A stretch of DNA of 64,000 nt from Emiliania huxleyi CCMP1516. Lineage: Eukaryota. This document shows positions 4,244 to 57,975 of this stretch, in pieces. The stretch covers positions 785,660-849,659 of the forward strand of contig NW_005201392.1 in NCBI RefSeq assembly GCF_000372725.1. The letters are read 5' to 3'. How positions within the stretch are numbered: position 1 is the first letter of the stretch; the number at the start of each line of letters is the position of its first letter. The translations under genes and the position numbers were made by a program. Below the pieces are notes generated by a model that saw only the letters and a list, made by a program, of their open reading frames with translations, ran no database searches and was not told where the DNA came from.

Positions 4244-7018
4244 TCACTGGGCCAACATGGCTCGCACCGCCTCGAGCCGCGGCGCGCACGCCGCGGAGAC
4301 GGCGGCGGAGTCGACGCGGCCGAGGAGCGCGCGCAGCACGTCCGCGTGTGCGCCGTCCGCGCCGGGCACGATGGCGTCGAGCAGCGCCCACGCCTGGGTT
4401 CGACACTTCCTCCTGAGGCATCAGTAGTGAGCAACGATGGCGTCGAGCAGCGCGCGCCTGCTCGTGCTGGTGCAGCAGCGGCAGCAGCGCCTGGTACGCC
4501 GCCTCGACCGCCGGCCGCGCCTCGACAGCGACGTGTGGGTGGCAGAGCAGGCCGAGCAGCAGCGCAGACAGCTCGGGCCGGCCGAGCGCGAGCGCGAGGG
4601 ACGCCTCGCCGTGCTGCGGGAGGGCGGCGAGCAGCGCGGCGGCCTGCTCGACGGGGAGCAGCTTCGGCGCCGCGGCGAGGCCGCTGCAGAAGGAGGTCAC
4701 GCGCGGGCTCTTCGAGCGCGCGATGGCGCCGAGGTGCGCCACCACCGCCTGCAGCACGGCGGCGAGGAGCGGCGGTGGCAGCAGCGGCATCACGTCGGCG
4801 ACCAGCTTCTGCCCCTTTTCGCAGCAGAGCAGCTCGGGCGAGACCGCGCCCCCCTCGGGCGGAGGCGCGCCCTCCGCCCCTCCGGGCGAGCGCAGCCGGC
4901 TAAAGAGGCGCTCGAGCAGCACGCGGCGCTGCTCCTGCCCCGCCGGGGTGCGCACGGCTGCCGACGAGGCGTGCACGCGCAGCCCGATGAGCGCCTCCCG
5001 CGCGGCGGCAACCTGGCTGCGGGTGTGCCAGCGGCTGGCGGAGAGGAGCGCGGGCGGGCCCGCGCCGTCCGGCGGTGCGCCCGTCTCGTCGGAAGGGAAC
5101 GCGCCGTCCGGCGGGTCGGGCGGGCCGCCCATCTCGATGAGCGGCTTGGGCGCGGCGATCTTTGCGGCGATCGGGCGGGTGGAGACGTTGCCGGCGCCGA
5201 GCGAGGCGCCAACCTGCTCGTTGGCTAGGGTTAGGGTTAGGTGTGGGTGTGGGTAATGGGGTAGCAGAGCCGAGCGATGCGCCGACCTGCTCGTTGGTCG
5301 CGTGCTGCGTCAGCCGGCGCGAGGTGGTGGTGGTGCTCGGCGCGGAGAGAGCGTGCTTCGCCTGGCGCGGAGAGGGGAGGAGGGGGGGGGGGGGGGGGGC
5401 GGTCGACGGGAGCGCGGAGAGGAGGGTGTGCGCGCGAGGTTGCCTTGGAGTGGCCCCCCTTCATGATCCAAAAGTGGTGGTAAAAGTCGTCGTCGACGGG
5501 GTCGTTCATCTGCAGCTGGTACGCTTGGTGGCGCAGGATGAGCTGCAGCTCCTGCCCCGTCATCCGCCGGCCCACCCGCGAGCCGGGCGCCTGCAGCTCA
5601 CCCGTCGGCGATTGGGTCCTCTCGCGTGGCTCATCACTAGAGTTCAGCCATCACTAGAGTTCAGCCATCACTAGAGTTCAGCCATCACTAGAGTTCAGCC
5701 ATCACTAGAGTTCAGCCATCACTAGAGTTCAGCCATCACTAGAGTTCAGCCGAGGCGCCTGCTGCCCGTCCATGGCCAGCCGCTAGGGTCAGGGTCACGG
5801 TAGGGGTAGGGGTAGGGGTAGGGGTTAGGGTAAGGGTTAGGGTGTGGGTACGGGTTAGGGCCAGACCTGCAGCTCGTCCATGGCCGGCCGCTGCTGCCGC
5901 GCGTGCGCCTGCTGCTGCTGCCGCGCCGCCTGCTGCTGCTGCATCACCGCCATCTGGCGCGCGACCTGCTGCTGCTGCGCCACGACCTGCGCGAGCAGGG
6001 CCTGCTGCTGCGCGGGCGGCAGGTGGGCCACCCTCGCCATCGCTGCCTGCAGGTGGGGCGGCAGGCCAGCCGCTGCGACCGGCGGCACGCCCGGAGGTGG
6101 GGGAGGCTGCTGCAGCTGCGGCAGAGCTGCGGGCACCGGCACCCCCCCCGGAGGCGGAGGCATGCCGGCTGGAGGCACTAAGCCGGCAGGAGGCGGAGGC
6201 ACTAAGCCGGCAGGAGGCGGAGGCATGCCGGCTGGAGGGTGCGGCGCCAATGGGCGAGGAGGAGGCGGCGAAGCGCCGAGCGGCGGGAGTGGCTGCGGCG
6301 GCGCGGCAGACTGCGACAGCGCGGCCCCGCCCTGCGGCGGCGGCGGCGGCTGCGGCGCGCTCACCGCGGCCTGGCGCGCAAAGCGCTGCTCGAGGTCGAG
6401 AGGGGGTCGGGCGAGGGCAACCTCGAGGACGTTGCCGCCGAGCGGAATGCCCTGCAGGCTCGCGCGCGCGCTCTCCGCGGTCGCTGCGTCCGCGTAGCTC
6501 AGCGTCGCCGTGCTCGACTCCCCCCCCCCCACCAGCTCAAACTCCTCGAGCGGACCAAAGTGAGAGAGCAGCTGCCGCGCCTGCTCCTCGCTCAGCGAGG
6601 CGGGCAGGCCGGAGACGCGGAGCGACCGCGACCCGCCGCCGGCCAGCGCCGGCGCAGCCTCGCGAGGCGGCGATTCGAGCCCCTCCAGCTTGCCGAGTAG
6701 GCCCGCGTCGAGGCCGTCGAGCGCGAGCAGGTCGTCCGGCCCGAGCAGCCCGCGGGTGGCGGCGGCGCGGTGCGGCTCAAGCGCCCCGAGCGCGCCCTCC
6801 GCGCCGAGGTCGAAGAACCCGCCGCCGCCCTCGACGCCCGCCCGCTCGGCGAGGAAGGACTCGTGCAGCGCCGCCAGCTTCTCGGAGTTGAGCTCGAAAA
6901 AGTCCTTGCCCGTGCCGACATTGTCGCCAAAGGTGTCGTCGTTGAACGCGTCCTCCTGGGCGACGACGTCCTCCACTATCGCCTCGTCCACCTCCTCGTC
7001 CTCGGGCGGCTGTGACAT
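4244..7018 (-). CDS. PAT1: PAT1/PATL-family mRNA decapping activator with an additional RRM domain (multi-exon)
   Basis: N-terminal EDAFNDDTFGD and GFFDLG motifs, a Pro/Gln-rich region, middle-domain MTGQELQLILRHQAYQLQMNDPVDDDFYHHFW (PAT1 DPY.DDFY signature), and a helical C-terminal domain ending AMLAQ* at 4244. Introns include 5214-5286 (GT-AG) and 4394-4457 (GC-AG). Confidence 0.8.
5632..5750. repeat. 17-bp minisatellite (catcactagagttcagc) x7, intronic
   Basis: Seven consecutive exact copies inside a PAT1 intron. Confidence 0.95.
5783..5860. repeat. Degenerate telomere-like (TTAGGG/TAGGGG) tract in a PAT1 intron; a second tract lies at 5226-5262
   Basis: tagggtcagggtcacggtaggggtaggggtaggggtaggggttagggtaagggttagggtgtgggtacgggttaggg; reads CCCTAA-like on the pre-mRNA strand. 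Confidence 0.85.
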
Positions 7019-7200
7019 CGCCAGTCTCCGGACCTTTTAGGCCTACGCCGCGAAGCTGCGAGCCGCGAGCCGAGAACGCGCTCGCACTACCGCGGGTAGC
7101 TCCGCCGGGCCACGCCTATTTCTTTTTTCATACAAAGACCCTGGAGCCACAGTACAATTATTATTATTATAAAGCGCAACTATTAATTCTTTTCCTCGCG

Positions 7201-8538
7201 ATGTCCACCCCGCCGCGCCGCCGCTCGCGCCGCCTCGCCTCCGCCTCCACCGCCGCCCCCTCGCCAGACGCGCCGCCGCCCGCCCGCCTGCTCGACCTCC
7301 CCAGGGAGCTCCTCGAGCGCGTCCTCTCCCGCTTCGACAGCCCCATCGACATCGCTCGCGCCGCGGCCGTCTCGCTTCTCTTTCACGCCTCGCTTGCGGA
7401 GGTGGGCATCCGCTTGTGGGCGCAAGAGCGCGGCTTCGAGCTGCCGGCGAAGCCAGAGGGCGAGGACTGTGCCGTGCGCTGGCTGTGCTATTCGGCGCTG
7501 CTGCACGAGTCCAACCCGCCGGCGAGGGCGGCGGCAGGCGAAGGGCACAGCGTCTTCATCGACGGCGAGGGGCGGCTCTCGTCGTGCGGGTCAGCGGCAA
7601 CGGAGGGCGAGGAGGAGGAAGACGACGACGAGGAGGAATCTCCAGGCCTTCTCGGTCACGGCGAGGGCGTGACGCGGCTCAACACGCCGACCCACGGCGA
7701 CCAGCAGGTCCAGTGGCTGCCCAAGAAGGTCGAGGCCTTTACTGGCCAGCGCGCCGTCGCTGTGTCGGCTGGACTTACGCACAGCATCGCCCTCACCGCC
7801 GACGGCGCCGTCTGGAGCTGGGGCTGGGGATACTCTGGCCGGTTGGGCCACGGCGACCAGCAGGACCAGCTCCTGCCCAAGAAGGTCGAGGCCTTTACTG
7901 GCCGGCGCGTCGTCACTGTGTCGGCTGGCCAGGGCCACAACCTCGCCATCACCGCTGACGGCGCTGTCTGGAGCTGGGGCCTTGGAGGTGTTGGCGAGCT
8001 GGGCCACGGTGACGATCAGGACCAGCTGCTGCCGAGGAAGGTCGAGGCCTTTGCTGGCCAGCGCGTCGTCGCCGTGTCGGCTGGAGGGGCTTACAGCCTC
8101 GCCGTCACAGCCGACGGCGCCGTCTGGAGCTGGGGCCGGGGATACTCAGGCCAGCTGGGCCATGGCGACGAGCAGCAGCAGCTGCTGCCGAAGAAGGTCG
8201 AGGCCTTTGCAGGGCGGCGCGCTGTCACCGTGTCGGCGGGAGATTTGCACAGCCTCGCCATCACCGCCGACGGCTCCGTCTGGAGCTGGGGCGATGGATA
8301 CTTTGGCCGGCTGGGCCACGGCGACGATCAGAACCAGCTGCTGCCCCAAAAGATCGAGGCCTTCGCTGGGCGGCGCGTCGTCGCTGTGTCAGCTGGAGTC
8401 TACCATAGCCTCGCCATCACCGCCGACGACGCTGTTTATGCTTGGGGCCTGGGCGAAAGCGGCTGCCTAGGCCACGGAGAGGACCTGTCGAACCAGCTGC
8501 TGCCCAAGAAGATCGAGGCGTGGGCGCCGGGGCAGTGA
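7201..8538 (+). CDS. F-box-like plus RCC1-repeat (UVR8/HERC-like beta-propeller) protein, intronless
   Basis: LLDLPRELLERVLSRF (F-box-like), followed by about six RCC1 repeats HSLAITADGAVWSWG.G..G.LGHGD..QLLPKKVEAF. ATG at 7201. Confidence 0.88.
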   Translation: MSTPPRRRSRRLASASTAAPSPDAPPPARLLDLPRELLERVLSRFDSPIDIARAAAVSLLFHASLAEVGIRLWAQERGFELPAKPEGEDCAVRWLCYSALLHESNPPARAAAGEGHSVFIDGEGRLSSCGSAATEGEEEEDDDEEESPGLLGHGEGVTRLNTPTHGDQQVQWLPKKVEAFTGQRAVAVSAGLTHSIALTADGAVWSWGWGYSGRLGHGDQQDQLLPKKVEAFTGRRVVTVSAGQGHNLAITADGAVWSWGLGGVGELGHGDDQDQLLPRKVEAFAGQRVVAVSAGGAYSLAVTADGAVWSWGRGYSGQLGHGDEQQQLLPKKVEAFAGRRAVTVSAGDLHSLAITADGSVWSWGDGYFGRLGHGDDQNQLLPQKIEAFAGRRVVAVSAGVYHSLAITADDAVYAWGLGESGCLGHGEDLSNQLLPKKIEAWAPGQ

Positions 8539-9779
8539 GAAGGTTTGGTGCCCGTGTGCGAGCTCCGTTTTCTATAGTGTGTTGAGCAGCGAAAAAAGGC
8601 AATTTCTGATGCGCCCCCGCGGGCCGCACAGCGCGCGCACACGACCGCGCGGCAAAGCGCGCACGGGCTGACACCTCGTAGTGGGCGGTGCGCCACGGTG
8701 GGGTCACGGCAGGGGGTGCTCACACTGCGCGGCCGCTGCCAGAGCGCGAAATTTCGCGACTTCGTGCTCGTGTATCTTTAGTCAGAGACATGTCTCTCGT
8801 CTCTCCTCTGAGTCTGACCCCTCCGCCCTCGTGTGAGCTGTGTGACACCTCTCTCTCTGACTGTGGGGGGTCACGTTAGAGAGAAAGAAAGAAAAAGAAA
8901 ACGCTAACCGACATCCCAAGCTAGGACTCGAGAGCTAGGAAGCTAGGCTAGCTACTCGTCGCCCTGAATGGTTGCCCAGGTTAGTCAGGACACGGATCCC
9001 GGCGTGAACACGCCGATCTGACAAAATCCCGAGTGCCTACCGCACGCGCCGCGTCGCGGCGCGTGCGGTAGGCTTTGTTTGAAGTTAAAAGTCGAATCAG
9101 AGCGGTGTCGGCGTTGTGTCCTGAGTTTTCTCCCCCGGACCGCCCAACCGGGACCGCTCCGGGACGCACGCCGGCGAAGCACCATCAAGCTGCTGTACGG
9201 CCCCGGAATCGCCTCCCCTGGCTTAGCTAGAGTGAGAGATATTGTGCACATGGTCTGTCTCTACAATATATACACTGACACTCTACCTCCCAGAGCTCGT
9301 CCCGGTCCGCCACGGCCATCCTTGGGCTTGGCCTCCGGAGGGCCCCCGGCCGCGCGGTCGGCGGCGGCGTCACAAATCCGACCACAGAGCACCGGGACGC
9401 GGTCGGGCGATCTGAGGCCCAACTAGGCGTATGCATTGCCCATCCAGTGCTATCACCTGGACCCATCAACAGGCGCCTGGGGCGCCGTGGCACGAGGTGT
9501 TGTTCACACCTGGGCAAGCACATTCATGCGCAGCACCGAGTAGGCTAGCAGTAGGTGCTAGCACCCGACTAACTACGGGCTGATTCTATTATATCCGTAT
9601 ATATTTGAGATCGCGGCAAGCCTCGGTGCCTGGCGCGAGGTCGCTTTTTTCACAAGTGGAAGAGCGGGGCATAACACGCGTGCCACCTCTCTCCTCACAC
9701 ACGTCACATGGTCCCTCGCATCGCTGCCCCGGCGCTCTCTCGCTCGCCCGGCGACGGCGGCGGCGGGAAGGAGCACGCA

Positions 9780-11156
9780 CTACGCGCAAAATCCTCGCGC
9801 AATTTTGCCCACGGGTCCCGCAGCAGCGGCCTCTCGCCCGCTTCCCCTTCCGCCGCCAGCACGCCGCGCAGCCCGCAGCTGCCTGCCGCGGAGCAAGGCC
9901 AGGGCGACGGCCGCAAGTGCCTCCACAGCAGCGCCTCCGGGTAGAGGCGACTCGCCAGGGAGGAGGAGGAGGAGGATGGATGGAGGAGGAGGAGGAGGAG
10001 GATGTGGTGGTGGAGAAGGCCACGCTTGGGACGGGCGCAGAGGCGAGCGCGCCGCTGGAGGCGTTGGCGAGCGCCTCTCCGAAGAGACGCTGCAGCAGGG
10101 GCGCCTGTTCACAGCTGCAGCTGTGAAGAGCTGCTCGTGACGGCTTGAGGTCGCGCAGCAGCACGTTATGAGTGCTCCGTGCCAGCCGCGCAGAGAGATG
10201 GTGGCGTCCACAAGACAAGCGCGTTATGAGTGCTTGCGCGAGGCTTGGCGGGGGCGGCGGGGGCGGCGGGGGCGGGGGTGGGGGCGGGCGAGGCGCGCCG
10301 ACGCGGTCGTCGCGGCGAGCAGCTGGTCGAAGGCGAGGCCTAATCTCGGGTAGTCTCGGGTAGTCTCGGGTAGTCTCGGGTAGTCTCGGGTAGTCTCGGG
10401 TAGTCTCGGGTCATCTCGGGTAGTCTCGGGTAGTCTCGGGTAGTCTCGGGTAGTCATCTCGGCCAGCCGGTCGAAGGCGAGGCCTGCGGAGGCGCAGTGC
10501 CACGGCGCGTAGACCGCGCTCGCCGACGCAGGTAGCGTTGGCGGCAGCGGCAGCGGGGCGGTGAGGAGAAGGTCCGGCCTGTGCGACATGGCTCGAGCGT
10601 GCGATGGACGTGTCGTGGACATGTCTCCAGAGTGGGGAGCAACGTCCGGGCCGTGTCCGGAGCACGAGGGTTGCGCTTGGGAAGGCACGCTCGGCCTAGG
10701 TCGACGGGCGGAGGGCTGCTGAGCCGGGCGCAACTTGGGAGGCGCTCGGCAGAGAGAGAGAGAGGGAGGGAGGGAGGGAGGGAGGGGGGGAGGGAGGGAG
10801 GGAGGGAGGGAGGGAGGGAGGGAGGGAGGGAGGGAGGGAGGGAGGTAGGGAGGGAGGGAGGGAGGGAGGGAGGAAGGGAGGGAGGGAGGGAGNNNNNNNN
10901 NNNNNNNNNNNNNNNNNNNNNNNNNNNNNNNNNNNNNNNNNNNNNNNNNNNNNNNNNNNNNNNNNNNNNNNNNNNNNNNNNNNNNNNNNNNNGCGAGATC
11001 GACCGTCACGAGGACGGAGATGTCGCCGCGGGGCGGGCAGGCGCTATGTTGCACACACTTCTCAGCGCGGGCGGAGCCCAGAGCAGTCGCGTCGAGGACT
11101 CGTCACGGGTCGACCTGCTGCTTATCCAAAGGTTTCGAGAAGGCTCATGGGAGAGA

Positions 11157-11237
<81 letters not shown>

Positions 11238-22524: not shown

Positions 22525-25500
22525 CTAGCGGTCGCGGTCGTACCGGCCGCCGCGGCGATCTCCAAGGTACTCGCTCTCTTGCCGATCACGTCCCAGCCGG
22601 CGCTCTCTTGCCGGCGGAGGCGACCGGCGCTGCTCGTGCGCACGGTCCGAGTCTCGCTCTCGCTCTCCGTGCCGGCCGCTCTGCCAATCGGACGAGTGTC
22701 GGTCCCGGTCGGCGCCGCTCCCGTCGCCGTACCTGCGCAAGCGCTCCTCGTGGTTGCGGTCGCCGAAGCGGCGCTCGTCGGACCGCCGATCGGCGGGCGG
22801 TCGCTCGGCCGCCCCTGCCCAACCACGCACAGGGGGTCGATCGGTTGGTGTTTTGCATGTGGAGGTGTTGGGAGGTGGGAGGTGGTGGCGGGCGGGTGGG
22901 GGTGGGGGTGGGTGGGTGTGTGGGGGGGGGGGGGGGCTCGGTGCCCGTCGCCTTGTCCCGTCCGCGCGCTTCCGATGTGGCGGCTCCCGCCTGGCAAGAC
23001 TGCGCCCGGCGGAGGCACACTGGGAGGCGCGTCGGCCGGTGGACCGCTCGTCGCCTGGTAGAGGAGAGGTGTGCATCACAAAGGGTGGAGGCGTGGAGAC
23101 CGAGGGGGTGGACTGGCCGCTCGTCGCCTCTGCCGGCGGCGGGTCGGCACCTCGCCCATCGTACAGGGCAGCTTGAAGCGAATTGTACGCCGTGGGCGCC
23201 GCCAGCTGCTGGTGGCCAAACGACGCACAGCCGTTATCGCGACCGCCGCCACCGCCACCGCCACCGCCGTCGCCGCTGCCGCCCGAGCTCGAGCTTTTGG
23301 CACGGCTGCAGTCCCGCTCTCCCGACTCGGCGGAGCGCTTGATGCCTGCGTCGGGGAGACGCGTCAGCAGCGCGGCGCAGCAAGGAGCAGCTAGGAGCAG
23401 CGGAGGGGCGCAGGCAGGCTAGTGGCAAGCTAGCGGCAGGCTGAGGCGAGAGCAGAGGCGTGGAGCGGTGGGCGGAGTTGAGAGCGGGGCGGCACACGCC
23501 TCTGCGGTCCCCGCAGTCGTGCGAAGGCGCGTGCGAAGGAGGCTGGCCGCCCCTCGCCCTTCCACCGTCGGCCAAAGGACGGCGGGACGGACCGCTCGGT
23601 GGCGGGGCCGAAGGCGACGGACGCTCATAGCCGCCAGGCGGCGCCTCCCGCCGCCCACGCTCCGCGCTTCCGCCGAAACGCGGGTGCCCCCGATCGGAGC
23701 TTGCACCACGCTCATAGCTCGCAGCGCGGTCGTAGCTACCGCGCTCATAGCCGCCACGGTCATAGCCGCCACGATAGCTCGCAGCGCGCTCGAAGTTGCC
23801 GCGCTCGTAGCTGCCGCGGTCATAGCTGCCGCGGTCATAGCTGCCGCGCTCGTAGCTGCCGCGATCGTAGCTGCTGCCGCGGTCGTAGCTGCTGCCGCGG
23901 TCGTAGCTGCTGGCGCGGTCGTAGCTGCTGGCGCGGTCGTACTCGTCGTGTCTGGCCCGCGTGCTTCCAATGTCGCGGCTGCCATTCGGCAGGTGAGGCG
24001 GGAGGGCGTGGGCCTCGGGCGGCGGCGTGGTCCGCACAGTTACCCCGCGCCCCCCGCCGTCGCTCTCCCGCCGCGCCGCCGCCGCGCCGCCAGCCTGCTC
24101 GCCGCCAGCCTGCTCGCCGCGCTGCTCGCCGCGCGGCGGGCCGGCGGCGGGAGGCGCGGCGGGAGGGGTGGAAGGACCCTCTGCCTCCACAAAGACCTAC
24201 TCCGCATCCGCCACGTCGCTGCACTTGCAGCCGAGAGGCGGGCTTGCTGTGCCGCCAGGGGGGGCCACCTCGATGATGTGGCCGTCGAGGGTGGAGCCTG
24301 GGGGGGGGGGGGGGGGGTCGAGACAAGGCCGGTGTCGTGCACGGCCGCCTCCAGGCGGGGGCCAGTGTGTACTGGTGCGCTCTCCCGGGAGTGAGCCGCA
24401 CAGCTCTGCTTCCACAGGCGCTGGAGCGGATGCCGTGCGGGCGTCCAGTGCGGGCCCGGCGGCCAGCGGCTCGAGAGCATCTGCTCATCTAGGCGGGGGC
24501 CGTTCAGGCGAGGGACAGCAAAGTCGAGGTCCTGTGGGGAGGGAGGGAGGGGGGGAGGGAGGGGGGGAGGGAGGGAGGGAGGGTGGCCGGTGTGTCCCTG
24601 CCTGGCGTGTGTGGCGTGCCTGTGTGTGCCTGTGTGTCCCTGTGTGTGCCTGTGTGTGCCTGGCGTGCCTGTGTGTGCCTGTGTGTTGTGGGGCCAAGTG
24701 GGGCGGGGTTGGGAGGACTCGCGGGTCGCTTTGCGCGTCTCGATAGTGTCGAAAGCGTGTCGGAAGTGTCTATCGGAAGTGTCTAGGAAACGCAGCCTCG
24801 CGGGAAGCGAACTCGACGATGCTGAGGGTGGGGTGCGGGCGAACAGTGTCAGAGATGGAGAGGCCGGCGAGTAGGTAGCGGGGGAGGGGAGGGCGGGGAG
24901 GGAGGGGAGGGCGGGGAGGGCGGGGAGGGCGGGGAGGGAGGGAAGGGAGGGAGGGGAGGGAGGGAGGGGAGGGAGGGGAGGGCGGGAAGACGGGAGGAGG
25001 CGAGGCACCCGTGTCCGTTCACGTCGATGTCCGAATAGATGATGTCCCCGATCTTTCTCATCTCGTCACGAAGCGTCCTCCACCTGCGCATGGCCCGAGG
25101 CGGGGACGGCGTCTCGGAAGGCACCCTGGATTGAGAAAAAAGAATTCTCTGGCGCCAGAGCGGCAAGGATGCTCCCGGCGGGCGGGTACCCCGGCAGACG
25201 GGTACCCCGGCGGGCGGGTACCCCGGCGGGCGGGTACCCCGGCGGGCGGGTACCCCGGCGGGCGGGTACCCCGGCGGGCGGGTACCCCGGCGGGCGGGTA
25301 CCCCGGCGGGCGGGTACCCCGGCGGGCGGGTGCCGCTGCTTGGGGGTGAGGCAGCAGGGGGCAGTGAGGAACGGGGAGGCCGTGTCTCGCACTCGTACGC
25401 CGGAGGCAAGTTGCGGAGGACGGCGCGGTGCCTAAGGGACATGTCACAGAGGCGTCCTGGACATGTTCCGGACATGTCCTGCACAAGCTGCGGAGGACGG

Positions 25501-26135
25501 CGCGGTGCCGCTGCGAGCGCGGCGCGTCAACAGGAGCGGCAAGAGAGAGAGCTGCAGAGTTGCCCGCCGGCGCCGCGTTCTTGCCCTTGTTTTTCGCGAG
25601 CTCGGCCTTGACACGCTGCTGGCCTGCGTCATCCGCGCACCAACGTCAGCAATCCGGCTCGAGTGCCAGTTTGAATACTCAGCCTGTTATTTCCGCATCT
25701 AGGGCAGCTGGCCGAGGAGCGCGTCTTGCATTCCCGCCACGACCACCTCTGCCGCACGCGTGTCGGAAAACTCCTGCGCGCGGACGTGACGGAGCGGCGA
25801 CGAGGTGGGCGAGAGGCGGGCGCGCAGCGACGACCCGGCGGCGATAGTGGCGCAGCAGTGGTGGCGAGAAGTGGCGGCGGTCGCGGCAGTCGCGACACTG
25901 GCGGCGAGGGACCCGGGCGTTGCGCTCGCAGTGGTGGCGGCGGTGTGGTGGCGGCGGCGGCGGCGAGATGGCGGGACTGGCGGCGAGGAAACGGCCCTCA
26001 GCGCACCACGAAGGCAAACCCGCCCGGGTTGCGAGCGATCCACACTGATGCCGGCATCGCAAACTTGCTGCAGGCATGCATGAGCTCATCCTGGCCCACG
26101 TGCGGGTCCAGGTTGCCGATATAGACGCGGGACAT
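22525..26135 (-). CDS. SR-like RNA-binding protein with two RRMs and an Arg/Asp/Gly-rich tail (multi-exon)
   Basis: RRM1 MSRVYIGNLDP...VWIARNPGGFAFV|EFSD. RRM2 HRAVLRNLP...WRTLRDEMRKIGDIIYSDI (SRSF1-type pseudo-RRM pattern). Tail has SYDRG repeats and ends RGGRYDRDR*. Confidence 0.75.
25176..25331. repeat. 16-bp intronic minisatellite (ccggcgggcgggtacc)n, about 9-10 copies
   Basis: Tandem array containing the palindromic GGGTACCC core. Confidence 0.95.
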
Positions 26136-42502: not shown

Positions 42503-45500
42503 ATGGTGGCACCCTTCCGCCGGTTCGCCCGCTCCTACCACTTCGCCAGCCCGGCGTACCACGCGGCCTTCTCGCCGCGGGTCGCTGTCGACACGGCTCC
42601 CATTCGCGCCGCAGCGCTGGCCGCCCACGGCCGCCTCGTCGCCGAGACTTCGCCGAGCGGCGGCCCCGCCTCGTGGCACGCCTCGCCGATGGTGTCGCTG
42701 CTCGGCGGGAAGCGCCTTGAAGGTGGCGAGCGCGTCCTGACGGTCGACGCCTTCGGCGCCACCAACGGCGCGCAGCTGCTCGCCTCGACGGACGAGATGG
42801 AGGCGCGGCGATTGCCCTCTCCCTCCCGCCTCCGCCATCCTCTCCGCTGACTGACACGGTCCCCGTGCGGTTTCTCCCGAAGGCCCTCCTGAGGCAGATC
42901 GAGGGCCCCGCGGCGCCGCGCGCCGACCTCCGGCCCGCCATTCGCCGCCTCGAAGCCCGGCTGCTCGAGCAGGTCCGCCTTCCGAGAGCCTCTGCACCGC
43001 CGCTTCGCCTCCTCCCGGCCGCCCTCTCGCCGCGTCCGCTGCCACCGCCGCCACCAGCACGGCAACGCGTGTGTGCCCAATCCGCTCACTCCTGCCCCTC
43101 CGCCGCCAGCGCGCCGGCGAGATGATTGCGGCGCAGCTGGTCGACTTTGGGAAGCAGGACGGCGTGACCGAGTTTGAGGAGGCAACGAAGAAGCGCCCAG
43201 CAATACACACACAAGCACACACGCGCGGCACGCTCAAGCACACACACACACCGCCCCGCCCCGCACCCTCCCGGCCGTGCGCGTGGATAGCGCGGCGCTT
43301 CGTGCATCTCCCTTCCTCTCCCTCTCTCTCTCTCTCTCCCTCTCCCCCCCGCTCCCTCTCTCATTGCCGCTTCCTTTACCGCTGCCTCCCTCACCGCCGC
43401 CTCCCTCATCGCAGCCTCCCTCAACGCCGACTCCCTCAACGCAGCCTCCCTCTCCGCCGCCTCCCTGTCCGGTATCTCCCTCGCCGTCAGGCGGTCGTCT
43501 CGTTCGACCCGTCGCAGCAGCAGCTCAAGGCTGAGTGGGCCAAGCTCGTCGGCGGGGTGGCGGGGCTCGAGCAGCTCGAGCAGTTCGAGCAGACCGAGGA
43601 GGAGTTCGCCGCCGAGCGGGTGCAGGCCTCTCTCCACCGCACTGTCCGGGTCGAGGCGCCGTACACGGGACGCGGCGAGCTCCTCGGCGCGGGCGCCGCC
43701 GGCGGCGGGCCGCGCTTCCCGCTCGCGCAGCAGTTTTGCACCAAGCTGGTCACGCTCGGCCACATCAAGTCGTCGCGCCCCGACGATGCCGCCTTTGTCG
43801 ACTACTTTGGCGCCTCGCCAAAGTGGCTCCGGGCGGGCGTCTTCGACTGAGGGGGGTGGCGACCCCGCGGCCCAAACCGCCGCCTCAGCCCCGCCGGGGA
43901 GGCAGTCAGTCAAAGCCAAATCAGTGGGGGAGGAGCGGGCACGGCGCAAAACGGGTCGGGGATTCGGCGCGCGCCAGATTTTGCGGGGGCGAAAGGGCGA
44001 ATCCCTGCCCTCCCCTTTTCCACCTCCGTCAGGGTTGTGCTCCCGTGGGGGGTCACGCCTAGACGCTTCGGCCCTCTATATACAACTATTTTATCNNNNN
44101 NNNNNNNNNNNNNNNNNNNNNNNNNNNNNNNNNNNNNNNNNNNNNNNNNNNNNNNNNNNNNNNNNNNNNNNNNNNNNNNNNNNNNNNNNNNNNNNNNNNN
44201 NNNNNNNNNNNNNNNNNNNNNNNNNNNNNNNNNNNNNNNNNNNNNNNNNNNNNNNNNNNNNNNNNNNNNNNNNNNNNNNNNNNNNNNNNNNATCGCGTCG
44301 ACGCAGGCGCCGCGGAGAAGCGAGCGCTGGCGTGGCACGCACGGAGTGTCCTCACCCCTCGACGAGCCCTCACCCCTCACCCCTCGACACGCCCTCCCGG
44401 AGGAAGGAGGGCGGAGCTGAGGAGCTTCTCCTCCCGCCGCCCCGCTGCTGGCCGCTCCTGGCCGCTCTCACACAAACCCCTCCCTCTCCCTCCCTTCCCC
44501 TCGCCGCCAGGGGCCCAACCTGATGGTCGCGCTTAACTAACTAACTAACTAACTAACTAATTGGATTAGGGGCCCAACCTGATGGTCGCTCTCGGACTGC
44601 CTCCTTCGGTGGCGAAGGCGGCGGCCGTCTCAGCGGGGAGATGCCCCGAGATCGCCCGAGATGCCCCGCGATGACCCGAGAGCGGGGGTGAGCAGGCTGC
44701 GGCCCTGTCTGCCACCATCGAGAACTCGGGCCAGTGCACGGCGCTGCGGGTGCTGCTCGCTCCGCAGGCCGAGGCGACGGACGCCGCCGTCGGAGCGATG
44801 CTCGCCGTCGACGCGGCGGCCACCGGAGCCGATGCCGCCTCCTACCTCTCGGCAGGCCAGTTCGCCGGGCTAATCAACTACTAATCAACTACTAATCAAC
44901 TGCTAATTAAGTGCTCACTACCTCTCGGCAGGCCAGTTCGCCGGGCTGCTCGCGCCGGCGCCGGTGGCGGAGGACGGCCGGCCGCCGCGCACGCCGAGCG
45001 GTTACACGGCGGTCACCCGACGCCGGAGGGGGGCTCCTAGGAGGAGCGCTGAAGCTGCGATGCACCTTCCTACAGGCGCACGCGGCGTCGGAGGGTGTCT
45101 CGTACCGTGTCTCGGTCGCATCGCCCCTCATCGCCCCTCATCGCCCCTCTCATCGCCCCTCTCATCGCCCCCATCTCCTGCCCTCTCCCCTCCTCTCCCC
45201 TCATACATGCGCACTCAACACAACAACTTGCACATTTGCATGCAACCACCTTGCACTTCCACGTTCGGCCGCGTGACCTAAACCCGGGGCTTCACGTCCA
45301 CCACCTGATAGGACATGCCGCACGCGGCCACCGTCTCGGTACGGCCGGTTGGCTGCAGATAGGTCAGCGGCGGGAACAGGTACTCCGCCTCGTTTGGAAA
45401 CGCGGACAAGAAGGATACGTTCGGGCCTCGGTCGTAGAAGGAGTCGGTGATCAGCCGCAGCAGCACGTGGTCGGAGGTCATCGTGCGGCTCGCTGAGTAG

Positions 45501-47473: not shown

Positions 47474-48024
47474 GGGGGGTGGCGACCCCGCGGCCCAAAC
47501 CGCCGCCTCAGCCCCGCCGGGGAGGCAGTCAGTCAAAGCCAAATCAGTGGGGGAGGAGCGGGCACGGCGCAAAACGGGTCGGGGATTCGGCGCGCGCCAG
47601 ATTTTGCGGGGGCGAAAGGGCGAATCCCTGCCCTCCCCTTTTCCACCTCCGTCAGGGTTGTGCTCCCGTGGGGGGTCACGCCTAGACGCTTCGGCCCTCT
47701 ATATACAACTATTTTATCACGCTCTCGCCTCTTTTTCCAAGAGTGAAGTATTCGAGCTGCGGCCGTGTGATCGGCCGTGTGCGCATCTGCGCATGCTGTA
47801 GAGAGGTTAGTGGTTACGTGACCCCCCCACGCGTCACGGGGGCCTGTACGGGGTCGACACGGCCAGCGGACGAGCCGGGAAAACCCCTCGCCCTTTCGCC
47901 CCCTGTGTCGGTGAGAGAGTTCTTTTTGTTGTCGTCCGCGCTTTGCCTGTTGTGTGTGAATCGTGCGTGTGCGAGAGTATATACTGGATCAAAACGCCAC
48001 GCTGCCACCCTTTTGTACTACACT

Positions 48025-50229: not shown

Positions 50230-50230
<1 letters not shown>

Positions 50231-50305
<75 letters not shown>
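50231..50305. repeat. (TG)n microsatellite upstream of the MFS gene
   Basis: About 37 TG units. Confidence 0.95.
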
Positions 50306-50308
<3 letters not shown>

Positions 50309-50543
50309 TGTGTTGTGTCCGGTCGCGTTCCAACCGTTTGCTTGTTGAGCACTTGAGCACTGGATAGGGTCGATTCCGCATGGTACGGGACCCCTCGATC
50401 GTTTGCTTGTTGTAAAATGTACAACCCTGTCAAGAGTTGACGTGAACCCCCCCCCCCCCCCCCCCCTCATCCACGCGCACTCAACACAACAACTTGCACA
50501 TTTGCATGCAACCACCTTGCACTTCCACGTTCGGCCGCGTGAC

Positions 50544-53205
50544 CTAAACCCGGGGCTTCACGTCCACCACCTGATAGGACATGCCGCACGCGGCCACCGT
50601 CTCGGTACGGCCGGTTGGCTGCAGATAGGTCAGCGGCGGGAACAGGTACTCCGCCTCGTTTGGAAACGCGGACAAGAAGGATACGTTCGGGCCTCGGTCG
50701 TAGAAGGAGTCGGTGATCAGCCGCAGCAGCACGTGGTCGGAGGTCATCGTGCGGCTCGCTGAGTAGCGCAGTGCGACGCTCAGGTCAGACGTCGTCGACA
50801 TGGGGGCGAGCTCCGTGCCCCCGTCGGCCATGAAGCTGTCGGGCGCGGCCACGTCCTTCATCCCGCGGTAGAGGAGGAGCTGCGAGCTGGCGCTCTCGCG
50901 GCTGACCTCGGCCTCCACTGAGCGGAGCTTCGTCAGGGCGTCCCGGAGCAGCGCGACCGTCGCGGGCAGCGGGTGGGGCTCTCCCCGCTCGTACCGCGCC
51001 CAGTTTCGGAGGGGGTTGTTGATCGACTCGAAGGCGGCGGTGGTGTACAGCCGCAGGGCGACGACGTGCGCCTGCTCGAGGTTGGCGAGCCGCGAGTGCT
51101 CGTGCGCCACAAAGTCGCGAAGGAGCATGCCGCGTCTCGCCGCGCCGTCGCAGACAGTGCGCGACTCCAGCACGGCGCCGTTCTCGTCGCAGTCGCGCTT
51201 GAGGCCGCCCTGAAAGGTGAGGTCGCTCGAGCCAGCCTCGGCGTACAGGACGTAGGCGAGGCACTCCTTGTCGACATCCGTCCCAGCTAGGCTCACCTGC
51301 AGGGAGAGGCGACTAGGGTGAGAGAGGGGGAGCGCGAGATTGTGCGGCGATCCGGCGATGGATCACAGTCACCTCGTTCACGATGGCCGCGGTCCCGTCG
51401 ATCCGGCCCTGGTGAACGATGTTCTCTGGCACGCACATGTACGCCTCGACGCCTAGCGCCGCTTGCGCTGGCCGGCCGAAGACGAGCTCGCGCGGCGCCG
51501 AGGCGAAGCGGTCGTAGGAGTCGAGGATGTTGGTCAACGTCACCTCCTCGGCGTTGAAGCGCCCCGACATGCGACTGAACACCTCCGTTATCTCCGACTC
51601 CATGCGATGGAGTTCATCCTTGGGTGCCACGGTGACTGGGCGTTTGCGGCGAAGTGCGAAGTACAAGCACAGCAGGAGAAGGGCGCACGCCCCAACGGCG
51701 CAAATGGCCGATACGACACTCCGGGAAAGAAGACCCTCCCCGATGCTAAATGACGATGGCGTGAATGGCGGGGTCGGGGTCGACGGCGGCAGTGGTGGTG
51801 CTTGCGGCGGCGGGGGCGACGCGTCAAACGGCGGTTCCGCCTCCCCAAAGTTGTAGATCACGCCGCTGCTCTCGCGAGATCCGCCCTCCCAGACCCACGT
51901 GTCGTTGCTGAATTGTGCTACGCGTTTCTCAGAGAAGCCATCTTGGTCGAGCAGGTTGAACAGCTGCACATTCGCGTTGCTCCTGTCGCCCTTTTCGTCG
52001 AACTCCACGCGCCCGGAAAGGCCGTCAAACGACAGGGTCTGCTTGGACTCCCAGAACTGCGTGCCAAACTTCACCGGCAGTGGCCCCGTCGGGGCCACCT
52101 TGCAGGACAGCAGCCCTGCCGCTATGACAGCGTCGTAAGCAAACACACTGCCATCGCGCAGCACTGCACTCGTTTTTGGATTGACGGTACTGAAAAAGTC
52201 GTCGATGATCTGCCAGTCGGCAGGCAGGAACGGGTTGAAGTCTCCAGGCTGAAGCTCCGGCCAGCGCTGGTTTGCGAACTTGGTCCACTGCGGGTTGCCG
52301 TCGGTCGCACCGACCGCCTTGATCTGCAGACTGCCGTTCAGCGCTATCCGCGCCGCCTCGCTCAGTGGCGCGCCGCCGTCGATTTCGAGCGTGGTGCCTC
52401 CCACACTCTCAGTGAACACCCAAGAGGTGCCACGTCTGAGTAGACCAGTGTCTATCGCAGACCTTACAATAAGGCGAATGCTGTATTGGTTGAAAGCAAG
52501 AACAAGCACTGCCTTGGCCCCGCTGCTGCTCAGGCTGTCGACAGCAGAACGGATCGAGTCATCGCGGATCGATGCATCTTCGGAAAACTCTTCGCTGACA
52601 ACTGTCAAGCCGCTGGCCTGGCACGCTGCCTTTGCTGCTGCCTCGTAGGCGCGCCCGTACGTGGTTTGCTCATGTATCACGGCCACGGTCGAGAGCCCGA
52701 GCTCACGCTTCCAAAAGGAGCAGAGGCCCGACGCGGCCGCAACGTCCGAGGGGATGGTCCTCATGAAGCGAGGATAGAGGACGGTATCGGACAGGTCGGC
52801 TGAAGTTGACCCGTATGAGATCTGCGGGATGTCACGAGCACCGGTGGAAGTCGCCGTGGTGGTAGAGACTGTGTCGAGAATAGGACCGATGACGACGTCT
52901 GTGCCAGATAGATCTCCCAGCGATAGGTCCGCCTTGGCAGCTGTGCCGCCGCTGTCGAGCAGCCGGAATTGAAGCTGCTTGTCGCATCCCTTCAAGGACC
53001 CAAGTACGGGCAACGCAGCAGGCTCCCGCGAGTTGAAGTCCGTGACAGCCGTGAGGGCGACTGCAACGATCGCCTGCGCGAACGGGAGAGTGAGCCAGCA
53101 CGCGCCACTGACGGACCAGTCGAAAGCGCAATTATCGGCGGACGCTTTTGCGTCCGACTGCCAGGTGAGGACGGCGACGCTCACGTTCACGGAAGCGAGC
53201 GCCAT
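50544..53205 (-). CDS. Putative single-pass receptor: Venus-flytrap (ANF-receptor/class C GPCR type) ectodomain, TM helix, R-S-E mono-ADP-ribosyltransferase; exons 51373-53205 and 50544-51296
   Basis: VFT motifs VVIGP, IPQISYGSTSADLSD..YPRFMRTIPSD, FAYDAV and FDGLSGRVEFDEKGDR. TM VVSAICAVGACALLLLCLYFAL followed by RRKR. A 76-nt GT-AG intron (51297-51372) joins AIVNE|VSLAG in frame. ART motifs LYRG, PMSTT and EAEYLFPP. About 861 aa; the start codon is uncertain. Confidence 0.85.
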
Positions 53206-53378
53206 GAGGGCAAGGTCACGGTGCCGGCGCGGCACGGCGTGTCTTTGTCACGCCTCGATTGTTTGAAGTCGAATTTTTTGTTTCACTGATGAGCGAGCAC
53301 CACGAAAAAAGGTCAAGGTCGTCCTGAGCCATCCGAGTTTCTTCTGTTCGGGCATGGTCGCCGCGTCAGGCGACACGA

Positions 53379-54367: not shown

Positions 54368-54594
54368 ATGTCAGGCGGGTAAGTACATGTATTCATGTGT
54401 ATGTGTGTACGTTTTTGCGAGCAGGGAGGTAATAGGATGAGCTTGCATCCATAAAAAGAAAATTTGAAGGGGCAAGGGCAAGAGGCTTTGATTCTCTCAA
54501 AAGAAAGAAAAACGATCGCGACTCCGCTGTCTGTTCCCCTCCATCTTGGCAGCCGCTCGGGCCTCTCTCCCGCTCCATCCGACAAATGCGCCGC

Positions 54595-55577
54595 ATGCCC
54601 ACTGCGCTCGTGACCGGTGCGTCGCGCGGCCTCGGCCTCGAGTGGTGCAGGCAGCTTTCCGATAAAGGGTGGACGGTCTACGCCGCGTGCCGAGCCGGTC
54701 CGGCCGCTCCCGCACTCGCACCTCTCAACGTCACGCCGGTCATGCTCGACGTGGCCGATCCGGCCTCGGTTGCCGGACTTGCTGCTGCGCTCGAGGGCGT
54801 CGACCTCGACTTGCTCGTGAACAATGCGGGCATCCGGCCAGATGAGTGCGGCCCCGACAAGACGCTCGGCGAGATGGACTATTCCGCTATGGAGGCCACG
54901 AGGAGAGCGGCCGGTAAGCTCTGTCACGGCCCGTTCAAAATCAACATTCTTGCACAGGCCGTGCTCGCAACCAACACGGTCGGGCCGATGCGAGTGCTCT
55001 CCGCTTGCCTGCCGGCGCTCAAGCGGGCGGGCGCGTTCAAAGTGCTCAACGTCAGCTCCGGCCTCGGCTCCTGCTCGCTGGCAGCGCACACCCGCCGCGC
55101 GTTCGGCAACATTGCGGCCACCGACCTCGCATACCGCTCCTCCAAGGCGGCCCTCAACATGGCCACGGCGCTGGCCGCCCTCGAGCTGGGCGAGCCACGC
55201 CCGAGCCACCTCCGCGACACTTCCGAGACGGCCAACTCGCCGGCGTGTGTTGGATGATCAGGCGAGTCGCACCCGCAGTCTTGCGTCGTCGCCTTTGACC
55301 CCGGCTGGGTGGCGACCGACATGGGCCTCCGCGGCGGCAAGGACTCACCGCCGCTCAAGGCCGGGGTTCGCAAGCAGCGACCAGCCTGACGGCACGCACC
55401 GGAGGCCAAACTGAGCCTCTGCCGGCATAGGTGGAGGACGCCGTCCGGCGCAGCATCCAGCGGATGGAGGGCCTCACGCCCGCGGAGACGGGCTCGTACG
55501 TGTCGGGGCCCGGCACGGCGGCGGCGGTGCGGGAGGACGGCTCAATCGGCTATGGCGCGTCGGTGGTCGCGTGGTGA
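54595..55577 (+). CDS. Short-chain dehydrogenase/reductase (C-factor/CsgA-like), multi-exon
   Basis: TGASRGLG, LLVNNAG, NVSSGLGS, catalytic YRSSK, and FDPGWVATDMG. Confidence 0.9.
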
Positions 55578-55780
55578 GGCCATTTCTGGTCGTCATTCAC
55601 TTTCTCCATTCGTGCGTGTGAGGCCAAAAAATTCTTTTTTTGACTTGTACCCTCCGGCGAAAGAAGAGAGTGCTGTGTATAGCGCCCCAGCCTGCTCCGA
55701 GCAGCGAGGAGTGGCTGCGCCAATTGCAGACAGTGGAGAGTGCCAGCGAGCCTTCCGCTACTCCATTCCGCTTCGGTCTC

Positions 55781-57975
55781 ATGCAAAAAGGCATCTTGTC
55801 GAACGCTGCACCGCTTGCAGCCTTCGCATCGCGCCGCTGCCGAGGAGCGACTCTTGTCATGCATCAGCTCTCCTCATCGCCCCCGCCCACTTGCCCACCG
55901 CCGATCAATCAGCTCCAGCCAGAGTGGTTTTCATCTACGCCTCCCGAGCTGGCCGCACTCAACAAGAGGGTCATCGAGGAGGCTGAGAAGACGCCCACAA
56001 TGATGGAGCTCGGCGTGCCAGCCTACCGCACGCTCCGGCACGCAGCCTTCAAGCACGGCGACCCGGCACGCTGCGTGGATGTGAGCCTCGCCGGGCTGGA
56101 CGGCTCGCCCGATGTGGCTGCCCGCCTCTTCTTCCCGTCCGCGGCGGCGGAAGCGGCGCCGCGAGGTGCATTGCTGCACCTGCATGCCGGCGGTCTAACT
56201 ATGATAAGTGATGGGTGAATCATTAATCCATGAATCACCAATCCATAGGCGCACTGCTGCACCTCCATGGCGGAGGCTTCGTCATCGGCTCTGCGATGGG
56301 CCAGAACGACGAGCGGCTGCTGCGGCACGCGGAGGCGTTGTGTTAAATGTACACCGGGCGCGGGCACGCACGCGCAATGCACACTCAATGCTCACTCGGG
56401 GGACGGGGATGCGGCCCACTCCACGCCGTTGCTTCTGGCCAGACAGCCGGAGGACAAGACGACTGACACGCATCAGGCGTGCGGTCTGACGGTCGTCTCG
56501 GTCGACTACCGGCTGAGCCCGGAGCACACCCACCCCGCGGCGCTCGACGACTGCCACGCCGCCGCACTCTGGCTCGACTCGCCCGAGGGCCGCGCCGCAG
56601 CGCGGATCGGACCCGAGGCACCCCTGCTGATGGTTTGCGAGTTCCAGATGCGGAACACGAGCCCGTGTATTCCGACCAGCGCATCGGCTGTGTTCAGCTG
56701 CATTGGCCACACTCCTCTCCCTCTGTTCGTTTCCCGTGGATTCAAGCGGTGCGCGATGCCGCTTCCCCGCCCCGACTCGGGTGTGTTCGTGGCGTAGGTT
56801 GGCGAGTCGGCGGGAGGCGACCTCGCCGCTGCCTGATCGTCCGCCTCGCGCGCGAACGTTCTCTGAGCCCTCTCCTGCAGGCTACCTCGCCGCGTCGCTG
56901 CTCGTCCGCCTCCCCCCGCCGGAACGGCGATCGCTCTTTGCGGCGGTCGCCCTGACCTACGGCTGGTTCGACCTCGCCGAGACGCCCTTCTTCAAGGCAC
57001 CGCGCTTCCAACCAGCCCACATACCCCTGGTGCTAGGGAGGGCCGCCAGCAGAGCTGACGCCGGCGGTGCTCTCTGTAGCCCCCTCTAGCGCGGGGCGCG
57101 GGGCGCGTCCTCCTGCATCCCTTTTCACCCCCCCTGTCAGGCGTGGGGCGAGAAGAGACTGGTCGAGACCGCAGGAACCTTCTACGAACCTTCTAGCAAC
57201 CTTCTAGGCGTGGGGCGAGAAGAGACTGGTCGAGACCGCGAATGAGCTGCGCTGGCTCCGCTCGCAGTGCTCCCGGCGCCGACCTACAGCGAACCTGCTC
57301 TGAATGCCTCTCCGCACGCCCCTCTAGGTTCCGCTCGCAGTACCTCGGCACCGGCTTCGACGCGGCCACAGTTTTGCGCGACCCGGACTCGCCGCTGCAG
57401 TGGACCCTTCCGTGAAGCTCCTCTGAACCTTCCTGCAGGCGCGGCTGCGCGACCCGGACGTCTCGCCGCTGCACGCCGACCTCGGTGGCATGCCTCCCGC
57501 CCTGCTCAGGTCTGGCCACACGCGAGCTCCGTCCCTGCCACCTCACCCGGGGTTGTGGTTTGCGTTGCCATTATGCGCTGACCAGCCCCATCCCGCTGCT
57601 CAGCGTGGGGACCGAGGACGCTCTCCTCGAGGATTCCCTCTTCATGTACGCGCGCTGGATCGGTGGCCTAGATGCGGAATAAGATCTGTTTTACTCGTAG
57701 TATTCCAGCTGCACTCGCGAGGACACAAATTCGACGGCATCCGGCTGTAGTTTGCTGTATTCGCAGCCCACGCGATGCTCTCTACCTTCACGATATGTTC
57801 CCCACCCCGACTTTCATGCTCATGGCGTAGGCTCGCAAGCGGCAACCGCGCGGAGCTGCGCGTCTACCCCGGCGCCGCACACGGGATGGGTCACTTCGGG
57901 CCGCACCAGCACACCGAGCAGGGGGAGGGGGCGCTGCGAGCCCTCGAGGCGTGGTACGCGGCGCACTTGCCCTAG
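55781..57975 (+). CDS. Hormone-sensitive-lipase-family alpha/beta hydrolase (esterase), many introns
   Basis: After splicing: [57 protein letters not shown] and YPGAAHG. Confidence 0.88.

What the first reader, a model, noticed from the sequence alone, without database searches (positions are those of the whole stretch)
4370..57480. Pervasive junction-duplication introns: introns carry a copy of their own splice-junction sequence plus simple-repeat filler
Seen in at least ten places across six unrelated genes: 117-290, 4394-4457, 5214-5286, 5760-5890, 10325-10485, 25407-25510, 44509-44589, 44842-44947, 56166-56248, 56815-56900, 57139-57239, 57255-57345 and 57373-57475. In each, a 15-35-nt stretch at or around AG|GY is present twice, separated by minisatellite or AT-richer filler; the copies range from identical to clearly diverged. 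Established: duplication of an AG|GY proto-splice site and double-strand-break repair with filler DNA are proposed intron-gain mechanisms, rarely seen at this density. Inference: an ongoing intron-creating or intron-remodelling process, which would also explain the many GC donors.
Basis: partly seen in the sequence, partly recalled or inferred. Interest (0 to 1): 0.8.

Follow-up and report, generated by a model that had tools for sequence, protein, structure and literature searches.

The report
Alga builds introns by duplicating junctions
Many short introns of the bloom-forming alga Emiliania huxleyi consist of a copy of the neighbouring exon sequence plus a simple repeat and are cut out precisely, which likely records a mass, transposon-free way of making new introns.

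Summary
The window is Emiliania huxleyi. All 13 named sites carry the repeat. RNA contigs splice 3 of the 4 named sites that have a listed joint exactly; 57139-57239 lies inside one 211-nt intron. A search with one filler motif, (CTAGGAACCTT)n, found the next exon's start copied upstream at 76 of 82 sites elsewhere in the genome, against 1.2% for mismatched pairs. The copies are 17-40 nt, locus-specific, and copy plus filler total about 68 nt. In one gene chosen for its repeats, 10 of 14 RNA-spliced introns carry a 12-33-nt junction repeat. Homologues on long contigs run uninterrupted across these positions, which points to gain. No intron-less allele was seen in five DNA or presumed-DNA runs, so 'ongoing' is not shown. 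Best reading: a simple repeat is inserted at a staggered cut, the target is duplicated, and precisely spliceable products survive. The enzyme is unidentified. It works like an introner but showed no inverted repeats, fixed duplication length or fixed element body.

The parts
118..255 (+). Predicted GC-AG intron: 35-nt copy of the next exon's start plus AT-richer filler, the 69-nt unit itself doubled
   Evidence: 34/35 match, frame open after removal; tandem 69 x 2.5; not RNA-tested
720..789 (+).
   Evidence: sequence; 10/11 match one base off register; not RNA-tested
841..913 (+).
   Evidence: not RNA-tested
4394..4457 (-). Predicted 64-nt GC-AG intron, copy of next exon start with a 2-nt gap, in a PAT1-like gene (gene name from recall; Pfam gave only an RRM)
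   Evidence: not RNA-tested
5214..5286 (-). Predicted 73-nt GT-AG intron; copy spans the junction (11 nt up, 18 nt down); telomere-like filler
   Evidence: not RNA-tested
5591..5866 (-). Predicted 276-nt GT-AG intron holding an inner copy of the upstream exon end (5758-5784), telomere-like filler and a 17-mer array
   Evidence: 23/26 match; removing 5759-5866 alone leaves no open frame; boundary read from the sequence; not RNA-tested
10340..10483 (-). Predicted 144-nt GC-AG intron: 20-nt copy plus an expanded 10-mer array
   Evidence: 19/20; array; not RNA-tested
25432..25508 (-). Predicted 77-nt GC-AG intron: 25-nt copy plus GGACATGTCC-type filler
   Evidence: 24/25, frame restored; not RNA-tested
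44511..44569 (+). Duplicated acceptor and exon start (20/20) with (TAAC)n filler; likely inside an upstream intron
   Evidence: homologues P0189 and P0190 continuous here; not RNA-tested
44618..44695 (+).
   Evidence: read by eye; homologues continuous
44856..44931 (+). 76-nt GC-AG intron between two perfect 30-nt copies that contain AG|GC
   Evidence: 14/14 up, 16/16 down; homologues P0185, P0189, P0190 continuous across it; metagenome ORFs of cluster P0184 read into it
55190..55261 (+). 72-nt GC-AG intron with a weak, old copy
   Evidence: RNA joint; 2 of 120 null draws as high
56166..56248 (+). 83-nt GT-AG intron of the alpha/beta-hydrolase gene; diverged 28-nt copy of the next exon
   Evidence: RNA joint; 0 of 120 null draws; shared with a diverged lineage
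56633..56797 (+). 165-nt GT-AG intron with a 10-nt remnant copy
   Evidence: RNA loose end at 56642; protein P0165
56817..56880 (+). 64-nt GC-AG intron: diverged ~33-nt copy plus GAACCTT-type filler
   Evidence: spliced in P0005, retained in P0003
56997..57207 (+). 211-nt GC-AG intron whose last 67 nt (57141-57207) are a perfect 32-nt copy of the next exon plus (CTAGGAACCTT)n-type filler
   Evidence: RNA joint 56994>57206 in two runs; 32/32; also in L022
57255..57327 (+). 73-nt GC-AG intron with a diverged 27-nt copy
   Evidence: RNA joint; 0 of 45 null draws
57365..57438 (+). 74-nt GC-AG intron with a diverged ~35-nt copy
   Evidence: RNA joint; 0 of 120 null draws
57510..57603 (+). 94-nt GT-AG intron ending in a 13-nt copy of the upstream exon end
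   Evidence: RNA joint; 0 of 120 null draws

Best explanation
These are precisely spliced introns made of a 17-40-nt copy of the adjacent exon plus a short simple repeat, and they were likely born when a repeat was copied into a staggered cut in an exon, duplicating the target. Inferred steps: (1) two offset nicks 17-40 nt apart leave overhangs; (2) a polymerase extends one end on a template of an abundant 10-11-mer intron repeat, most likely a pre-existing intron, with reverse transcription primed at the target slightly favoured over DNA-templated end joining (about 55:45, a judgement); (3) the other end anneals through a few matching bases or a few extra bases and the gap is filled; (4) selection keeps products that are removed without trace: the copy starts at GC/GT/GA (donor) and the filler ends in AG (acceptor), or the copy itself holds AG|GY, and the total reaches the workable size of about 63-76 nt. 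The process has recurred with several repeat families, sometimes twice at one junction. Shown: the anatomy, its recurrence and the splicing. Inferred: gain, geometry, template and enzyme.
For: Recurrence: 76 of 82 non-redundant filler sites carry the copy (score >=30) against 1.2% of mismatched pairs. Anatomy: in 57 clean sites copy 17-40 nt (median 27), total 60-86 (median 68; 54 of 57 within 63-76); copy and filler length anticorrelate, rho -0.85; 58 further repeats with other fillers nearby, 45 of them at offsets 58-80 where about 6 would be expected. Splicing: 10 of 14 RNA joints in L044 have 12-33 letters fitting both sides; of 10 RNA-defined window introns 4 have a significant copy, 1 is borderline, 1 holds an inner copy. 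Selection on the donor: of the 62 copies starting with G only 2 start GG, against 28% background; retention breaks the frame at 54 of 56 sites. Joint: microhomology of 2 nt or more in 11 of 21 clean joints against 15% in simulated blunt joints (p 8e-5); the other 36 of 57 have extra or diverged bases. Templated filler: the same variant units recur at different loci and twice in one contig; DNA runs hold the fillers next to many other flanks. Gain: hydrolase orthologues (60-70% identical, one clade 100/100 with a Phaeocystis cordata cluster) are single ORFs on 14-34-kb contigs in two sub-lineages; homologues of the 44.5-kb gene on 7-31-kb contigs are continuous across the 44618 and 44856 sites, and two of the three appear to run into introns elsewhere.
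Against: No presence/absence polymorphism was seen: no DNA joint for any duplication intron in X8, X3 or X1, X2, X9, though contigs drop rare alleles and tables were cut. Most loci come from two assemblies that may be one population, and were chosen by a motif ending in TAGG, so the fixed 3' end is partly built in. Short-read assembly may disfavour long arrays and sharpen the length peak. No polymerase or endonuclease was looked for. Rarity of such repeats in neutral DNA (1-2 of 11 in the window; one 45-nt case in L010) is not explained by random breaks plus selection.
Confidence: 0.7

Rival explanations
1. Renewal of old introns: a break in an existing intron is repaired on the spliced RNA or cDNA, which copies the first 17-40 nt of the next exon over the intron's 5' part (aborted intron loss). 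Positions would be old.
For: Explains the copy starting exactly at the junction, the near-constant total length and the scarcity outside genes.
Against: Homologues lack introns at these positions. At most 6 of 82 filler sites lack a copy, so copy and filler arrive together. Cases where copy 1 follows an intact acceptor (57141, L037, L099) cannot come from a spliced template.
Confidence: 0.1
2. Plain tandem duplication of about 68 nt of exon containing AG|GY, with the 3' part later overwritten by an expanding minisatellite.
For: Gives a constant total length; some copies do hold AG|GY inside (5214, 44856, three in L044).
Against: 49 of 71 sites share at most one base upstream of the junction, so the acceptor exists only because of the filler; 27 of 57 copies are still perfect while the filler is complete; no filler-free stage was found.
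Confidence: 0.1
3. A classical introner: a non-autonomous DNA transposon or a discrete SINE with a fixed body.
For: Shared multi-copy sequence, target duplication, donor taken from the duplication and acceptor carried by the insert, as for known introners (10.1101/2022.06.06.494994, passages).
Against: Duplication length varies 17-40 nt; no terminal inverted repeats or fixed 5' end by inspection of 70 printed fillers; several unrelated fillers share one geometry.
Confidence: 0.07
4. Artefact: assembly duplication, or reverse-transcriptase template switching between direct repeats posing as splicing.
For: The window is a gapped draft with duplicated blocks; direct repeats favour template switching (own knowledge).
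Against: Independent assembly L022 has the same structures; the joints fit G(C/T/A)..AG ends and rebuild a protein collinear with orthologues; DNA runs with the same repeats show no such joints.
Confidence: 0.01

Closest known systems
Introners that carry the 3' splice site and take the 5' site from the target-site duplication (Symbiodinium, Polarella; 10.1101/2020.10.14.339549 parts 1-2 of 4 read; 10.1101/2022.06.06.494994 passages)
   Same: Donor recruited from the duplicated target, acceptor from the insert, GC/GT/GA donors, mRNA unchanged, many introns per gene.
   Different: In the parts read, those duplications are 3-8 nt and fixed per family and several families have inverted repeats; here 17-40 nt, variable, with only a simple repeat as insert and several repeat families in one geometry.
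E. huxleyi entries in the introner survey PMC12130899 (passages; 12 of 14 supplementary files searched)
   Same: Three small families are listed (5, 6 and 45 copies); two span about 66-69 nt and one is noted '10bp terminal direct repeats', 'co-opt 5', carry 3''. They may be the tip of this class; I could not see their sequences.
   Different: Mechanism given as unknown or LTR, duplications of 2-4 nt called; 'huxleyi' does not occur in the main text; no long variable duplication or large-scale class is described.
[quoted passage not shown]
   Same: Direct repeats at the ends of new introns, staggered breaks, inserted filler, splice sites from duplicated exon.
   Different: The review counts 5 repair cases and 188 duplication cases over all species and warns that short repeats are at background level; here the repeats are long, far above background, and the filler comes from a few recurring repeat families.
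Interstitial telomeric repeats inserted at breaks (PMC2246262, passages)
   Same: A simple repeat added at a break with microhomology, sometimes with target duplication; telomere-like filler occurs at 5214, 5760 and in L055.
   Different: There duplication is a minority outcome (6 of 130 rodent loci, 4 of 25 primate) and no introns result; most fillers here are 10-11-mers, not the telomere repeat.
Target-primed reverse transcription by non-LTR retroelements (recalled, no call)
   Same: Variable-length duplication, repeat tail abutting the second copy, variable 5' end with microhomology or extra bases.
   Different: No element body was seen; duplications are longer than the 7-20 nt recalled for L1; both filler orientations appear to occur for some families.

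Membership tests
Introner (transposon-derived intron family) | Related sequence shared by many introns at unrelated loci | tested here: met
   124 stretches with one filler motif; several other families
Introner (transposon-derived intron family) | Target duplication of a short length fixed per family | tested here: not met
   17-40 nt, continuous range
Introner (transposon-derived intron family) | Terminal inverted repeats or a fixed element body | tested here: not met
   by inspection of the fillers printed: pure or lightly varied arrays starting at any phase
Introner (transposon-derived intron family) | Absent from orthologues or polymorphic between strains | tested here: inconclusive
   absent in unnamed homologues on long contigs; no polymorphism in five DNA or presumed-DNA runs
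Introner (transposon-derived intron family) | Autonomous partner or transposase | not testable with these tools
   no whole genome held
Tandem genomic duplication of an AG|GT exon segment | Both splice sites come from the duplicated segment | tested here: not met
   true of a minority (5214, 44856); 49 of 71 share at most one base upstream
Tandem genomic duplication of an AG|GT exon segment | Intron made wholly of duplicated gene sequence | tested here: not met
   about 30-50 nt of foreign filler at the clean sites
Intron gain by double-strand-break repair | Direct repeats at intron ends above background | tested here: met
Intron gain by double-strand-break repair | Microhomology or extra bases at the repair joint | tested here: met
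   11 of 21 with >=2 nt against 15% simulated; 36 of 57 with extra or diverged bases
Intron gain by double-strand-break repair | Dependence on end-joining enzymes | not testable with these tools
   needs experiment
Non-LTR retroposition (TPRT) | Variable duplication, repeat tail at the 3' end, variable 5' end | tested here: met
   the 3' end is partly fixed by the search motif
Non-LTR retroposition (TPRT) | A longer master element and a partner reverse transcriptase with the same tail | not testable with these tools
   no genome; only short shared 5' variants seen
Telomerase-inserted interstitial repeats | Insert equals the telomere repeat | tested here: not met
   telomere-like only at 5214, 5760 and L055; most fillers are other repeats; that the alga's telomere is TTAGGG is recalled

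The most novel reading that the evidence does not exclude
Introns beget introns without any transposon: a reverse transcriptase uses the repeat-filled 3' end of excised intron RNA as template at nicks in transcribed exons, so each insert arrives with an acceptor, takes its donor from a long target duplication and becomes a template itself. This self-feeding cycle would have produced on the order of ten thousand E. huxleyi introns and would account together for the alga's intronic 10-11-mers and its GC donors.
Probability: 0.25. Interest if true: 0.92.

Novelty: new variant of a known kind. Interest (0 to 1): 0.78.

Why it matters
Most recently gained introns have no traceable origin, and mass gain has so far been laid to transposons. 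Here each intron carries its own record: a locus-specific duplication that dates it (55 mismatches in 1553 copied bases, 27 of 57 perfect) and a filler that types it. If the reading holds, a model alga shows repair-type intron gain at large scale, which makes the mechanism testable with existing strain genomes. It would also give a concrete source for the reported majority of GC donors (56-65% in PMC4028052, passages) and a reason why gene models skip these introns (the public model P0002 misses several). Rough scale: 9 strict cases in 63 kb is one per 7 kb, about 2x10^4 for a genome of roughly 150 Mb (size recalled; one window only).

Tried and rejected
No whole genome is held, so no genome-wide count. 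Filler motif in viral contigs: 0 hits. Paralogue test among the fetched loci: all hits were the same locus in another assembly or filler repeats, so uninformative. Automatic coding/strand classifier: 58-60% of random positions scored coding-like, so it cannot show exon targeting or filler orientation and was not used. Protein search with the exon at 4461-5213: no hit, so the three PAT1-like sites lack protein support. A hint of synonymous-biased divergence between copies (56166, 5214, 44618, by eye) did not hold in the larger set: 11 synonymous, 21 non-synonymous, against 26% synonymous for random changes. First microhomology measure compared unlike definitions and was replaced. Preference for existing acceptors: 9 of 57 have YAG before copy 1, about 4 look like real acceptors, near my rough chance estimate, so no special targeting is claimed. 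One DNA joint at a 147-nt non-duplication intron of L044 in X9 has unknown letters between and is not counted as an empty allele. Rows dropped: 3 of 85 sites with GC under 0.55; 10 of 82 without a clean ungapped copy and 1 duplicate, leaving 71; 14 of 71 with a non-GC/GT/GA start, copy over 40 nt or length outside 55-90, leaving 57. The 2013 genome paper was not held; that it reports 10-11-bp repeats in introns is recalled. Ten literature searches listed no paper that, by title and abstract start or the passages read, describes this class; subscription journals and two supplementary files of PMC12130899 were not seen, so prior description is not excluded.


Full report
Identity. No genome was held. 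The first exon of the hydrolase gene matches an Emiliania huxleyi CCMP1516 protein at 100%, so the window is from E. huxleyi; it is a gapped draft with 696 N. A majority of GC donors and much intron retention are published for this species (PMC4028052, passages).

Observation. All 13 named sites hold a near-identical repeat of about 20-35 nt with a spacer. A scan blind to splice signals found 11 isolated interrupted repeats against 0-2 in 10 shuffles; 9 of the 11 sit at junctions by my reading, one is intergenic and one lies in an open frame. RNA contigs confirm exact removal at 56166, 57255 and 57365 and show that 57139-57239 lies within one 211-nt intron. Of 10 RNA-defined introns in 54.9-57.8 kb, 4 have a copy that no null draw reached, 1 is borderline, 1 holds an inner copy and 4 have none; an eleventh joint (55581>55741, AT..AG) was left out. 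An independent metagenome contig has the same five hydrolase structures.

Beyond the window. DNA runs showed the hydrolase fillers attached to other flanks, so I searched metagenomes with one filler motif and got 124 stretches, 122 loci, mostly from two assemblies. At 76 of 82 non-redundant GC-rich sites the sequence after the motif's AG is copied upstream, against 1.2% for mismatched pairs. In 71 junction-anchored sites the donor is GC 43, GT 15, GA 2, GG 2, other 9 (the last look mis-registered); most share only a G upstream; copy and filler lengths anticorrelate (rho -0.85). In 57 clean sites copies are 17-40 nt, totals 60-86 with 54 in 63-76, and 27 copies are perfect. The flanks of these loci hold 58 more interrupted repeats with other fillers (CCCCATATCT, GGACATGTCC-type, GAGAT/ATCTC 10-mers, TAACCC, AT-rich), 45 at offsets 58-80. 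In L044, picked because it had the most such repeats, one RNA contig splices 14 introns; 10 have 12-33 letters fitting both sides, and one 146-nt intron is two successive events with different fillers.

Gain or renewal. Orthologues of the hydrolase form one clade with a Phaeocystis cordata cluster (100/100); two sub-lineages have single ORFs on contigs of 14-34 kb that cover all ten E. huxleyi intron positions. Homologues of the 44.5-kb gene on contigs of 31, 7 and 10 kb run straight across the 44618 and 44856 sites, and two of them appear to run into introns elsewhere. Gene calls in these collections read into introns rather than splice them (P0006, P0008, P0021), so continuity implies no intron; the organisms are unnamed and their DNA was not seen. 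Against 'ongoing': no duplication intron was skipped in five DNA or presumed-DNA runs (tables cut, contigs drop rare alleles), and proteins of a diverged lineage (P0003 93% identical over the first exon) read into the introns at 56166, 56817 and 57255. Copies differ by 3.5% on average, slightly overdispersed: recent and repeated, but fixed wherever tested.

Mechanism. A locus-specific duplication of variable length with foreign sequence between the copies is the footprint of an insertion at a staggered cut (established for transposition and break repair; own knowledge and PMC3443670, passages). The copy-filler joint has microhomology more often than blunt joining would give (11 of 21 against 15%) or extra bases. 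Variant repeat units recur between loci and within a contig, and neighbouring introns in one gene often share a family (hydrolase, 44.5-kb gene, PAT1-like gene; by eye), which suggests copying from existing arrays. Selection explains the register: GG starts are nearly absent and retention breaks the frame at 54 of 56 sites. Fillers lacking AG appear to survive where the copy holds AG|GY (L044). The narrow total length most simply reflects a lower limit for splicing plus few long fillers; a 45-nt case in apparently non-coding DNA (L010) fits, but assembly bias is possible. What random breaks do not explain is the rarity of such structures in neutral DNA; this leans towards a transcript-coupled, RNA-templated step but rests on one window, since my coding classifier failed.

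Comparison. It works like an introner that carries the acceptor and co-opts the donor but fails on fixed short duplication, inverted repeats and fixed body. It meets the tested marks of repair-mediated gain at a scale not found in the review I read. Telomere-repeat insertion at breaks is a partial analogue. The introner survey lists only three small E. huxleyi families, one annotated with 10-bp direct repeats. An earlier AI note on another haptophyte (e1-2577349) describes a 66-nt intron with a 15-nt duplication; I did not test it and treat it as a lead that the process may be wider. Ten searches found no description of this class, but the 2013 genome paper and most subscription journals were not available.

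Verdict. A real, spliced and widespread feature; gain is likely; the enzyme and current activity are open. New variant of a known kind, interest 0.78.

Noticed in passing
window 50470-53210 (-) and a partial copy at 45200-45965 (-): Gene that looks like an extracellular ligand-binding receptor domain, a transmembrane helix and an ADP-ribosyltransferase-like domain (labels from recall, not searched); an RNA contig of a paralogue about 90-94% alike was laid on it.
   Followed up: no
window 43490-44096 vs 47113-47720; 61100-61730 vs 62680-63240; 36830-37130 vs 22470-22760; 37480-38400: Near-identical duplicated or inverted blocks, some next to N gaps; the 42.5-47.5 kb gene is scrambled relative to homologue P0185. 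Likely draft-assembly or haplotype artefacts.
   Followed up: partly
window 54520-58046: One RNA contig joins the short-chain dehydrogenase gene to the hydrolase gene through a 159-nt AT..AG skip (55581>55741): read-through transcript or chimeric contig; the public model P0002 also fuses the two.
   Followed up: no
window 55781-57975: Outside its eukaryote-like clade the hydrolase's nearest relatives are mostly unnamed acetyl esterases, bacterial where named, suggesting an old bacterial origin; it has ten introns in about 1.1 kb of coding sequence.
   Followed up: partly
window 38404-39119: Perfect 253-nt tandem repeat, 2.8 copies, in apparently non-coding DNA.
   Followed up: no
window 57141, 5759, 44511; L044 2786-2933: Inner AG|G sites left inside longer introns could act as recursive splice sites; contigs cannot show this.
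   Followed up: no
L044 3112-3260: A contig of presumed-DNA run X9 skips this 147-nt non-duplication intron while another X9 contig keeps it; empty allele, replaced intron or RNA carry-over.
   Followed up: no
window 7200-8540: Intron-less gene with five 156-nt repeats (RCC1-like, from recall); paralogous stretches occur in L024, L040 and L061.
   Followed up: no
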